Below are positions 36,201-39,200 of a stretch of 64,000 nucleotides of DNA, piece after piece (the stretch's first letter is position 1; every line of letters starts with the position of its first letter). Position numbers: made by a program. The DNA is taken from assembly GCF_055900595.2 (NCBI RefSeq), contig NZ_CM148325.1; one strand, written 5' to 3'.

Positions 36201-39200
36201 TGGTTATTACCGGCGTGCTCTTTTTTGCCTTCCGTAACGTGCAATATGCCCATGCAACGATGTTCATCACACTTTTGGTGCTACTTTGTTTTAACTTGCT
36301 GGGTGAAGGTTTTGAAGTGGCGTTACCTCGCGTAATCGATACGCTGATTGGTTGTGCCATTGCGTGGGCGGCGGTGAGCTACATCTGGCCTGACTGGAAG
36401 TTTCGCAATCTGCCGCGCATGCTCGAACGTGCCACCGAGGCCAACTGTCGCTATCTCGATGCCATACTGGAGCAATACCATCAGGGGCGTGATAACCGTC
36501 TGGCGTATCGTATTGCCCGCCGCGATGCACACAACCGTGATGCTGAACTGGCGTCGGTGGTATCAAATATGTCCAGCGAGCCGAACGTTACCCCGCAAAT
36601 TCGCGAGGCCGCGTTTCGGTTGCTGTGCCTTAACCATACGTTTACCAGCTATATCTCAGCCCTCGGTGCTCACCGGGAGCAGTTAACTAATCCTGAAATT
36701 CTGGCGTTTCTTGATGACGCAGTTTGCTATGTTGATGACGCGCTACATCATCAACCTGCTGATGAAGAACGCGTCAATCAGGCATTAGCTGACCTGAAAC
36801 AGCGGATGCAGCAACTTGAACCACGGGCAGACAGCAAAGAACCTCTGGTCGTACAACAAGTCGGGTTATTGATTGCATTACTGCCAGAGATTGGTCGTCT
36901 GCAACGCCAGATTACTCAAGTTCCGCAGGAAACTCCTGTTTCGGCGTAAGAGAGTCAGCCCATTCTGCAAGCTCCTGGCGGCGTGCCACCGGGAGCGCAG
37001 CTTCATGAATGCCGATAATGGCCCCTTCAAGCATAAACAGAATCTTTTCTGTCACCAGACTGTTTTGCTGCCGCAGTCGCAACCAACACATTTTTGCCCC
37101 AAGTATACGTAACGCCCGTACATCCTTAATCCCCACCTCCCCGAGTATCGCTTCCAGATGAAAAGACATATTGGGCAAATCTTTCAGTCTTTCCCGGGTA
37201 TTGCGCGTGCTTTTCTCTTTCAGCGCTGCATCGAGAGAATATTTCGACAGACGCACCAGCTTCAGTTGATTTCGCCATAGACTTTCATCAACCCGATAGT
37301 AATTGAGGGTAACGGATCGGCCACACTTTTTATATGTCAGCCAGACAGGCGGATGTTTTACACAGTACTGTGCACTTTGCTCACAAGCCCGAAGATACAA
37401 CTCACCATCAGAAACCATCGCAAACACCGTGTCGTCAACGGTCAGGCTGTAACTACCAAACAATGATCGGTATTCAATTGTGCCCAACGTTGCCAGGTAT
37501 TCTTGTGATTTATAGATCCGCTTATAGGAGAGGCTTTTCATAAAATTCCTTTTAAAATCATAACATAAAAGAATGATTCACATTAACGGATCCGTTAACT
37601 ACGAAAATAGGCAACTTATTCTTAAGGGGCAAGATTAATTTATGTTTTCCCGTCACTAACGACAAAATTTGCGAGGCTCTTTCCGAAAATAGGGTTGATC
37701 TTTGTCGTCACTGGATGTACTGTACATCCATACAGTAACTCACAGGGGCTGGATTGATTATGTACACTTCAGGCTATGCACATCGTTCTTCGTCGTTCTC
37801 ATCCGCAGCAAGTAAAATTGCGCGTGTCTCTACGGAAAACACTACAGCCGGGCTTATCAGTGAAGTTGTCTATCGCGAAGATCAGCCCATGATGACGCAA
37901 CTTCTACTGTTGCCATTGTTACAGCAACTCGGTCAGCAATCGCGCTGGCAACTCTGGTTAACACCGCAACAAAAACTGAGTCGGGAATGGGTTCAGGCAT
38001 CTGGGCTACCCTTAACGAAAGTGATGCAGATTAGCCAGCTCTCCCCTTGCCACACTGTGGAGTCAATGGTTCGCGCTTTACGCACGGGCAATTACAGTGT
38101 GGTGATCGGTTGGTTGGCAGATGATTTGACTGAAGAAGAGCATGCTGAACTTGTTGATGCGGCAAATGAAGGTAACGCTATGGGGTTTATTATGCGTCCG
38201 GTAAGCGCATCCTCTCACGCAACGAGACAACTTTCCGGGCTAAAAATTCACTCTAATTTGTATCATTAAGTAAATTTAGGATTAATCCTGGAACTTTTTT
38301 TGTCGCCCAGCCAATGCTTTCAGTCGTGACTAATTTTCCTTGCAGAGGCTTGTCTGAAGCGGTTTCCGCGGTTTTCTTCTGTAAATTGTCGCTGACAAAA
38401 AAGATTAAACGTACCTTATACAAGACTTTTTTTTCATATGCCTGACGGAGTTCACACTTGTAAGTTTTCAACTACGTTGTAGACTTTACATCGCCAGGGG
38501 TGCTCGGCATAAGCCGAAGATATCGGTAGAGTTAATATTGAGCAGATCCCCCGGTGAAGGATTTAACCGTGTTATCTCGTTGGAGATATTCATGGCGTAT
38601 TTTGGATGATAACGAGGCGCAAAAAATGAAAAAGACAGCTATCGCGATTGCAGTGGCACTGGCTGGTTTCGCTACCGTAGCGCAGGCCGCTCCGAAAGAT
38701 AACACCTGGTACACTGGTGCTAAACTGGGCTGGTCCCAGTACCATGACACTGGTTTCATCAACAACAATGGTCCGACCCACGAAAACCAACTGGGTGCAG
38801 GTGCTTTTGGTGGTTACCAGGTTAACCCGTATGTTGGCTTTGAAATGGGTTACGACTGGTTAGGTCGTATGCCGTACAAAGGCGACAACATCAATGGCGC
38901 ATATAAAGCTCAGGGCGTTCAACTGACCGCCAAACTGGGTTACCCAATCACTGACGATCTGGACATCTACACTCGTCTGGGTGGTATGGTATGGCGTGCA
39001 GACACCAAGGCTAACGTACCTGGTGGCGCATCCTTTAAAGACCACGATACCGGTGTTTCTCCGGTCTTCGCTGGCGGTGTTGAGTACGCGATCACTCCTG
39101 AAATCGCTACCCGTCTGGAATACCAGTGGACCAACAACATCGGTGACGCACACACCATCGGTACTCGTCCGGACAACGGCCTGCTGAGCCTGGGTGTTTC

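What the first reader, a model, noticed from the sequence alone, without database searches (positions are those of the whole stretch)
36912..36949. Convergent 3' overlap of yccS and sxy (38 bp)
The yccS stop (36949) lies 38 bp inside the 3' end of the oppositely oriented sxy ORF (36912 is the sxy stop). Transcripts of the two genes must therefore overlap at their 3' ends, giving scope for antisense interference with sxy, a gene already under unusual post-transcriptional control.
Basis: seen in the sequence. Interest (0 to 1): 0.25.

Follow-up and report, generated by a model that had tools for sequence, protein, structure and literature searches.

The report
Known tail-to-tail overlap of yccS and sxy
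The 38-base overlap between the ends of the E. coli genes yccS and sxy is real but ordinary and already published; the one detail that may be new is a conserved RNA hairpin inside sxy that probably forms the end of the yccS transcript.

Summary
yccS (34787-36949, +) and sxy (36912-37541, -) share 38 bp, stop codons included. RefSeq annotates the same overlap in K-12, and the junction is ≥99% identical in 5,414 of 5,425 complete E. coli genomes.

It is not new. Conway 2014 shows that the sxy and yccFS operons converge, and ExcludonFinder 2025 lists sxy-yccS among 165 convergent "excludons". About 75% of convergent E. coli operons have overlapping 3' ends.

The overlap covers only the variable tails of both proteins, outside any Pfam domain. 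The conserved cores lie 46 nt apart. Overlap length drifts among Enterobacteriaceae and Erwiniaceae (one unidentified relative has a 2-nt gap); Yersiniaceae have a 36-44 nt spacer holding a hairpin. With cores 46 nt apart, random tails overlap 85% of the time, so no selection is needed.

A possibly new detail: a GC-rich stem-loop inside sxy (36971-36996), 21 nt past the yccS stop, is kept in 23 of 24 Enterobacteriaceae loci. Its arm codons show strong synonymous constraint (P<1e-5). A C-rich, G-poor tract typical of Rho loading sites follows it. This probably forms the yccFS 3' end.

Antisense control of sxy is possible but untested.

The parts
34331..34777 (+). yccF CDS, the upstream gene of the yccF-yccS operon whose transcription runs into the junction
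   Evidence: ORF; annotated as yccF; called the yccFS operon by Conway 2014.
34787..36949 (+). yccS CDS (putative FUSC-family inner-membrane transporter), stop TAA at 36947-36949
   Evidence: Pfam FUSC-like E 2.5e-115, with the last Pfam match ending at residue 685 of 720.
36912..37541 (-). sxy (tfoX) CDS, CRP-S co-activator, stop TAA at 36914-36912
   Evidence: Pfam TfoX_N residues 14-106 and TfoX_C residues 116-194 of 209.
36912..36949 (.). 38-bp tail-to-tail CDS overlap. Codon positions pair 1-1, 2-3 and 3-2. Only 2 of 114 possible substitutions are silent in both frames.
36915..36959 (-). Sxy C-terminal tail, residues 195-209 (ADSLTPKQEFPAELE). It lies outside the TfoX_C domain and varies in sequence and length between genera (Sxy is 200-209 aa).
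36914..36946 (+). YccS C-terminal tail, residues 710-720 (TQVPQETPVSA). It lies outside any Pfam domain and varies between genera.
36971..36996 (.). Conserved GC-rich stem-loop inside the sxy CDS (codons 182-191), 21 nt downstream of the yccS stop. In yccS sense it reads GCUCCUGG-CGGCGUGCCA-CCGGGAGC (-20.2 kcal/mol in its 36-nt context). A U.G wobble in yccS sense is a C.A mismatch in sxy sense. No U-tract follows on either strand.
   Evidence: Folds. Present in 23 of 24 Enterobacteriaceae loci. 92% of cells paired and 3 pairs changed on both sides. Arm codons have lower synonymous entropy than every comparable invariant Ala, Leu, Pro or Arg column of sxy and yccS, permutation P<1e-5. The loop codon R187 varies freely.
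37015..37200 (+). C-rich, G-poor tract in yccS sense (antisense to sxy), resembling a Rho loading (rut) site. The peak C/G is 3.56 at 37078-37155.
   Evidence: It falls in the top ~0.06% of 78-nt windows of the chromosomal part of the window. A C/G peak of about 1.9-3.3 lies +67 to +129 downstream in 22 of 23 other Enterobacteriaceae loci. No such bias exists downstream of the sxy stop (maximum C/G 1.2-1.7).
36828..36892 (-). Candidate hairpin plus U-rich stretch (UCUUUGCUGUCU) downstream of the sxy stop, inside the yccS CDS. Weak candidate, probably fortuitous.
   Evidence: Fold -19.4 kcal/mol, z -2.5. The arms pair poorly outside Escherichia, and the yccS codons involved show ordinary synonymous variation.

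Best explanation
The 38-bp overlap is an incidental by-product of a very compact convergent junction; I see no sign that it is a device in its own right. The functional cores of Sxy (ending at W194) and YccS (ending about I709) are only 46 nt apart, and there is no intergenic terminator region. Each reading frame runs on through a dispensable, fast-evolving C-terminal tail until it meets a stop, and those stops happen to lie past each other.

What is conserved is the compact junction, plus a GC-rich stem-loop embedded in the 3' end of the sxy coding sequence, 21 nt beyond the yccS stop and followed by a C-rich, G-poor tract.

Inferred mechanism:
- yccF-yccS transcription passes the yccS stop and ribosomes are released.
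- Rho loads on the C-rich tract and terminates inside antisense sxy.
- 3' exonucleases trim the RNA back to the hairpin, which becomes the stable yccFS 3' end.
- Alternatively, the hairpin acts as the pause element of a collision-type bidirectional terminator.

On this model the stable yccFS and sxy mRNAs are complementary over roughly 85-90 nt rather than 38. yccFS polymerases also enter the sxy gene body, so some interference with sxy is mechanistically possible.

Shown here: the overlap, its drift in length, the hairpin conservation and the composition bias. Inferred: the termination mechanism and any regulatory effect.
For: - Geometry and annotation.
- The overlap lies only in tails outside Pfam domains.
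- Overlap length differs between genera while synteny (ycbZ-matP-ompA-sulA-sxy >< yccS-yccF-helD) holds: 38 in E. coli and E. fergusonii, 41 in E. albertii, 14 in Salmonella, 11/23/32/47 in Citrobacter, 35 in Intestinirhabdus, 44 in Enterobacter and Lelliottia, 4 in Yokenella and strain ESL0689, 26 in Tatumella and Rosenbergiella, and a 2-nt gap in one unidentified relative.
- Yersiniaceae have a 36-44 nt spacer containing a hairpin.
- Null model: random tails overlap in 85% of trials, with a median of 62 nt.
- No intrinsic terminator near the junction and no Rfam family.
- Hairpin.
- Rut-like C-rich tract downstream of yccS only.
- Published transcript overlap.
- Hairpin-dependent collision termination between convergent E. 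coli genes.
Against: - No mapped 3' end for either gene was available. The held supplements of Adams 2021 and TERMITe 2025 do not mention them, and other datasets are not held, so the role of the hairpin is inferred.
- The stem is mostly invariant, and covariation support is modest (3 pairs changed on both sides).
- An inverted repeat with conserved arms and a variable 10-nt spacer could instead be a protein-binding site.
- C-richness antisense to genes is a general tendency, although this tract is extreme.
- The tight junction is retained across two families, which could also reflect selection for coupling.
Confidence: 0.7

Rival explanations
1. Functional convergent excludon. Transcription of yccFS is used to repress sxy (or the reverse) through polymerase collision and/or RNase III cleavage of the 3' duplex. 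On this view the absence of an intergenic terminator is selected.
For: - sxy-yccS is in the published E. coli excludome.
- The tight junction is conserved across Enterobacteriaceae and Erwiniaceae.
- The conserved hairpin sits inside sxy, so yccFS RNA always covers the sxy 3' end.
- Excludon pairs show higher synteny in general.
- sxy has no known natural inducing condition in E. coli (abstract of PMC3330819).
Against: - Overlap length is not conserved, and chance alone predicts an overlap.
- 75% of convergent operons overlap.
- The published dsRNA (p19) validation was not feasible for convergent pairs.
- No data on reciprocal expression exist for this pair.
- From general knowledge, not measured here: both genes are weakly expressed, which makes collisions and duplex formation rare.
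Confidence: 0.2
2. The conserved stem-loop serves sxy, not yccS. It could be a structure in the sxy mRNA that affects its translation, decay or premature termination. It could also be a DNA inverted repeat bound by a protein.
For: - The element lies within the sxy CDS and folds on the sxy strand as well (-19.5 kcal/mol).
- It forms a perfect stem on both strands in 5 of 17 distinct sequences.
- sxy homologues are controlled through mRNA structure in H. influenzae.
Against: - In E. coli, Salmonella and most Citrobacter the sxy-sense stem has a central C.A mismatch that is a U.G wobble in yccS sense.
- Its position, about 20 nt after the yccS stop, and the rut-like tract that follows both fit a yccS 3' element.
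- Yersiniaceae carry a hairpin in the spacer instead.
Confidence: 0.15
3. Annotation artefact: one of the two ORFs is not a real gene, or it ends earlier than annotated.
For: None found.
Against: Both proteins give strong Pfam matches. Both are conserved with intact frames across genera. Stop codons are unambiguous in the sequence.
Confidence: 0.01

Closest known systems
Overlapping convergent operons / convergent 'excludons' of E. coli (Conway et al. 2014, mBio, PMC4161252; Sanmartin et al. 2025, NAR, PMC12288877)
   Same: Adjacent opposite-strand genes whose transcripts are complementary at their 3' ends. This exact pair is drawn in Conway's Fig. 1 and listed in the ExcludonFinder table.
   Different: Here the coding sequences themselves overlap, so overlap does not depend on leaky termination. 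Mutually exclusive expression, the functional part of the excludon definition, has not been shown for this pair.
Bidirectional terminators between convergent gene pairs (Ju, Li & Liu 2019, as summarised in Wang et al. bioRxiv 10.1101/2022.10.23.513370)
   Same: A stem-loop without a canonical U-tract sits at the boundary of a convergent pair and folds on both strands. It could pause converging polymerases.
   Different: The hairpin is inside one coding sequence, not between the genes. A rut-like tract follows it on one strand, whereas the published class is described as Rho-independent. I could not obtain SEnd-seq data for this locus.
Rho-dependent terminators whose transcripts end at a stable stem-loop after 3' trimming (Dar & Sorek 2018, NAR, PMC6061677; only the abstract was seen; the trimming model is from my own knowledge of that paper)
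   Same: The layout matches: stop codon, then a stable hairpin lacking a U-tract, then an untranslated C-rich, G-poor tract.
   Different: Rho dependence is untested here, and the 'untranslated' region is the antisense of another gene.
Short tail-to-tail gene overlaps, e.g. tusE/yccX and ycbX/zapC in this same window
   Same: Convergent CDS overlap with no intergenic spacer. All three pairs are in the ExcludonFinder list.
   Different: Those two overlaps are the common 4-bp type in which the two stop codons interlock. The yccS/sxy overlap is 38 bp and involves 11-12 codons of each protein.
H. influenzae sxy 5' mRNA secondary structure (Cameron et al. 2008, PMC2248739)
   Same: An RNA structure partly within the sxy coding sequence.
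   Different: [quoted passage not shown] The element here is at the 3' end, in a different species, and is better explained as the end of the neighbouring gene's transcript.

Membership tests
Convergent (tail-to-tail) overlapping protein-coding genes | Both ORFs are real protein-coding genes | tested here: met
   Pfam TfoX_N and TfoX_C for Sxy; FUSC-like and FUSC_2 for YccS. Intact orthologues across genera.
Convergent (tail-to-tail) overlapping protein-coding genes | The stop codon of each gene lies inside the other gene's reading frame | tested here: met
   yccS TAA at 36947-36949 and sxy TAA at 36914-36912, giving a 38-bp overlap.
Excludon (overlapping transcripts of opposite-strand neighbours with mutually exclusive expression) | Adjacent genes on opposite strands with overlapping transcripts | tested here: met
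   The CDS overlap forces at least 38 nt of complementarity. RNA-seq overlap has been reported in the literature.
Excludon (overlapping transcripts of opposite-strand neighbours with mutually exclusive expression) | Expression of one gene lowers expression of the other | not testable with these tools
   No expression data for this pair were accessible. The ExcludonFinder text gives none for sxy-yccS.
Excludon (overlapping transcripts of opposite-strand neighbours with mutually exclusive expression) | RNase III-dependent processing of the duplex | not testable with these tools
   The published p19 dsRNA validation was not feasible for convergent pairs. Lybecker 2014 is not held.
Intrinsic (Rho-independent) terminator | GC-rich stem-loop | tested here: met
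   Stem-loop at 36971-36996, -20.2 kcal/mol.
Intrinsic (Rho-independent) terminator | A run of U immediately after the stem | tested here: not met
   The stem is followed by GCAGCUUCAUGAAU in yccS sense and UUGCAGAAUGGG in sxy sense. The consensus scan found no terminator at the junction.
Rho-dependent terminator | Untranslated C-rich, G-poor (rut-like) tract downstream of the stop codon | tested here: met
   C/G reaches 3.56 at 37078-37155 in yccS sense, and a comparable peak is present at a similar position in most relatives. None is present downstream of sxy.
Rho-dependent terminator | Read-through when Rho is inhibited (bicyclomycin) or mutated | not testable with these tools
   No accessible dataset covers this locus.
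Bidirectional terminator of convergent gene pairs (Ju et al. 2019) | A hairpin-encoding element at the boundary of a convergent pair that folds on both strands | tested here: inconclusive
   The element folds on both strands (-20.2 and -19.5 kcal/mol), but it lies inside the sxy CDS, 50-85 nt upstream of the sxy stop.
Bidirectional terminator of convergent gene pairs (Ju et al. 2019) | Sharp, overlapping 3' ends on both strands in SEnd-seq, independent of Rho | not testable with these tools
   The paper and its data are not held.

The most novel reading that the evidence does not exclude
The conserved stem-loop embedded in sxy, together with the missing intergenic terminator, could form a selected switch. 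Under this reading, yccFS transcription invades sxy, pauses or collides at the hairpin, and keeps the competence co-activator Sxy silent under most conditions. That would help explain why no natural inducing condition for E. coli sxy is known.
Probability: 0.1. Interest if true: 0.5.

Novelty: already known. Interest (0 to 1): 0.15.

Why it matters
The overlap is in every E. coli annotation, and the transcript overlap has been published twice.

The follow-up adds two modest points. First, the overlap is a neutral consequence of a compact junction, which guards against reading regulation into it. Second, the likely 3'-end element of yccFS is a stem-loop under synonymous constraint inside sxy. 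It is a concrete, mutable target for anyone who wants to test whether convergent transcription contributes to the very low expression of E. coli's competence regulator.

Tried and rejected
- **Intrinsic terminator scan, 34000-38600:** nothing at the junction, and the number of hits matched the shuffled expectation.
- **Rfam, permissive threshold:** only a chance snoRNA hit at E 0.5.
- **Mapped 3' ends:** the held supplements of Adams 2021 and TERMITe 2025 mention neither gene nor the K-12 coordinates. Supplements of Dar & Sorek 2018, Conway 2014, ExcludonFinder and PMC9023263 are not held. Ju 2019 and Lybecker 2014 are not held at all.
- **Literature search for 'yccS' alone:** returned only unrelated acronyms.
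- **Small hairpin inside the overlap (36925-36940):** weak at -7 to -8 kcal/mol, z about -1.5, so I rejected it as an element.
- **Hairpin plus U-rich stretch downstream of the sxy stop (36828-36892):** folds well in E. coli, but the arms do not pair outside Escherichia and the codons show normal synonymous variation. I rejected it as a conserved terminator.
- **Selection for the overlap itself:** rejected, because overlap length drifts and chance predicts overlap.
- **Annotation artefact:** rejected.

Full report
**1. Observation**

The window carries yccS at 34787-36949 on the plus strand and sxy (tfoX) at 36912-37541 on the minus strand. The sequence shows the yccS TAA at 36947-36949 and the sxy TAA at 36914-36912 on the minus strand.

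RefSeq annotates the same geometry in a near-identical strain and in K-12 MG1655, where sxy is 1021138..1021767 and yccS is 1021730..1023883. The region is present in 5,425 of 5,426 complete E. coli genomes. The 111-bp junction is at least 99% identical in 5,414 of them.

Both ORFs are real genes. Sxy matches TfoX_N and TfoX_C, and YccS matches FUSC-like and FUSC_2.

**2. It is already known**

Two papers name this pair. Conway et al. [quoted passage not shown] The same paper reports that 276 of 370 convergent operons give complementary 3' ends, overlapping by 286 nt on average.

ExcludonFinder (NAR 2025) lists sxy-yccS among 165 convergent "excludons" whose transcripts overlap in at least half of 58 MG1655 RNA-seq samples. 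The same list holds yccX-tusE and zapC-ycbX. Both are also convergent CDS overlaps in this window, of 4 bp each, at 28337-28340 and 52051-52054. So three of the eight convergent chromosomal pairs in this window overlap.

**3. What the overlap consists of**

The TfoX_C domain ends at Sxy residue 194 of 209, and the last Pfam match of YccS ends at residue 685 of 720. In alignments of 24 Enterobacteriaceae loci, conservation stops at W194 of Sxy and at about I709 of YccS. Beyond these points both proteins have short tails that differ in sequence and length between genera.

The two conserved cores are 46 nt apart, and the overlap lies wholly within the two tails. Codon positions pair 1-1, 2-3 and 3-2, so only 2 of 114 possible substitutions in the overlap are silent in both frames. 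That may explain why the junction is so uniform within E. coli.

**4. Comparative geometry**

Synteny (ycbZ-matP-ompA-sulA-sxy >< yccS-yccF-helD) is conserved in every locus examined. The junction differs as follows:

| Taxon | Junction |
|---|---|
| E. coli, cryptic Escherichia clades, E. fergusonii | 38-bp overlap |
| E. albertii | 41-bp overlap |
| Salmonella | 14-bp overlap |
| Citrobacter species | 11, 23, 32 or 47-bp overlap |
| Intestinirhabdus | 35-bp overlap |
| Enterobacter MAG and Lelliottia | 44-bp overlap |
| Yokenella, Enterobacteriaceae bacterium ESL0689 | 4-bp overlap |
| Tatumella, Rosenbergiella (Erwiniaceae) | 26-bp overlap |
| One unidentified relative | 2-nt gap |
| Chimaeribacter (Yersiniaceae) | 44-nt spacer with a hairpin |
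| Yersinia ruckeri (Yersiniaceae) | 36-nt spacer with a hairpin |

These values come; the spacer hairpins are shown. The compact junction is therefore old, but the overlap length is labile.

**5. Chance expectation**

I placed the two cores 46 nt apart and let both frames read through random sequence of the local base composition. They overlapped in 85% of 200,000 trials and by at least 38 nt in 65%, with a median of 62 nt. The observed overlaps of 4-47 nt are, if anything, shorter than random. No selection for overlap is needed; the feature to explain is the missing spacer.

**6. How the transcripts end**

No canonical intrinsic terminator is found near the junction, and no Rfam family matches.

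A GC-rich stem-loop lies at 36971-36996, inside sxy codons 182-191 and 21 nt beyond the yccS stop. It folds at -20.2 kcal/mol in yccS sense and -19.5 kcal/mol in sxy sense. It is present in 23 of 24 Enterobacteriaceae loci, the exception being Yokenella.

- **Pairing across taxa:** on an alignment of 17 distinct sequences, 92% of cells pair. Three pairs show changes on both sides, including a G-C to A-U change in one Lelliottia.
- **Synonymous constraint:** the arm codons A182, L183, P184 and R188 have lower synonymous entropy than every one of the 58 Ala, 112 Leu, 23 Pro and 48 Arg amino-acid-invariant columns of sxy and yccS in the same 20 taxa. E190 is also invariant at the codon level. The permutation test over all five arm codons gives P<1e-5. 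The loop codon R187 varies freely. This argues for selection on the nucleic acid rather than the protein.
- **Strand asymmetry:** in E. coli, Salmonella and most Citrobacter, one stem position is a U.G wobble in yccS sense but a C.A mismatch in sxy sense.
- **No U-tract:** none follows the stem on either strand.
- **Rho-type tract:** downstream in yccS sense there is a C-rich, G-poor tract. C/G reaches 3.56 at 37078-37155, which is in the top ~0.06% of 78-nt windows in the chromosomal part of the window. A C/G peak of about 1.9-3.3 lies +67 to +129 downstream in 22 of 23 other Enterobacteriaceae loci. Downstream of the sxy stop there is no such bias.
- **Rejected candidate:** a second hairpin with a U-rich tail downstream of sxy (36828-36892) folds well in E. 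coli, but it is not conserved and shows normal synonymous variation.

**7. Most likely mechanism (inferred)**

After the yccS stop, ribosomes leave the yccFS transcript. Rho loads on the C-rich tract and terminates within antisense sxy. Exonucleases then trim the RNA back to the stem-loop, which becomes the stable 3' end. This is the pattern known for Rho-dependent transcripts.

Alternatively, the stem-loop is the pausing element of a collision-type bidirectional terminator, as described for convergent E. coli genes. Under either mechanism the stable yccFS RNA would cover about 85-90 nt of the sxy 3' end, not just 38 nt. yccFS polymerases would also enter the sxy gene body.

In taxa with a spacer (Yersiniaceae) a hairpin sits between the genes. 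In taxa without a spacer a hairpin is embedded in sxy.

**8.

The logical step is sound: complete mRNAs must overlap. The regulatory step is untested. Overlap of convergent transcripts is the norm, and the published dsRNA validation could not be applied to convergent pairs. No data on reciprocal expression exist for this pair.

The "unusual post-transcriptional control" of sxy is established for H. influenzae, where a 5' structure blocks translation. [quoted passage not shown]

**9. Verdict**

The stem-loop under synonymous constraint inside sxy, and the one-sided rut-like tract after it, are small additions that I did not find described. They give a precise handle for testing whether yccFS transcription affects sxy. 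I put the probability of a genuine regulatory role at about 0.1-0.2.

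Noticed in passing
window 28337-28340: tusE (+) and yccX (-) overlap tail-to-tail by 4 bp. 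The pair is in the published excludon list next to sxy-yccS.
   Followed up: partly
window 52051-52054 (context 52030-52060): ycbX (+) and zapC (-) overlap tail-to-tail by 4 bp. The stops sit in a small palindrome, GCGCTTAAACTAGCGC. This pair is also in the excludon list.
   Followed up: partly
window 38189-38218 (-), inside sulA (37760-38269 +): The only sigma-70-like promoter match in 34000-38600 lies antisense within sulA and points towards sxy. Conway 2014 reports a stationary-phase antisense transcript over sulA. Such a transcript would run in the same direction as sxy and upstream of it, and could read into sxy.
   Followed up: no
window 1-~26850: The first ~27 kb is a lambdoid prophage next to yccA, judged from the annotation of near-identical strain E200086. 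It carries capsid, portal, terminase, lysis genes, hokD, dicB, an IS1, tRNA-Arg/Ile/Gly and an integrase at about 25.8-26.9 kb. The window equals that strain from ~30 kb onward and is offset by 1 nt before that.
   Followed up: no
window 34787 (yccS start): PGAP annotates YccS as 720 aa starting at 34787, 9 nt after the yccF stop. K-12 MG1655 annotates 717 aa. This is a start-codon discrepancy of 3 codons.
   Followed up: no
L009 (Citrobacter koseri NCTC10786), 4599-6752: yccS aligns in three pieces in different frames. That indicates two frameshifts, so it is either a pseudogene or carries long-read indel errors.
   Followed up: no
L025 / P0031 (Escherichia fergusonii): E. fergusonii Sxy is only 69% identical to E. 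coli Sxy. That is less than E. albertii (90%) and similar to Citrobacter (about 70-73%), yet it keeps the same 38-bp overlap with completely different tail sequences.
   Followed up: no
L023: A 276-bp contig labelled Alkalicoccobacillus porphyridii (coverage 1.1x) is 99% identical to E. coli sxy. This is almost certainly contamination of that assembly.
   Followed up: no
E. coli genome search: Four of the 5,427 matches to the sxy-yccS junction lie on records typed as plasmids. These are probably mis-assigned chromosomal fragments.
   Followed up: no
L028 (Tatumella), about 75-105 nt downstream of the yccS stop: A strong 13-bp hairpin (CUGGCCAGCACUUCCUGGUGCUGGCCAG) lies inside the Tatumella sxy CDS at roughly the position equivalent to the enterobacterial stem-loop, but it is built from unrelated sequence. 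It may be an independent solution to the same problem.
   Followed up: partly
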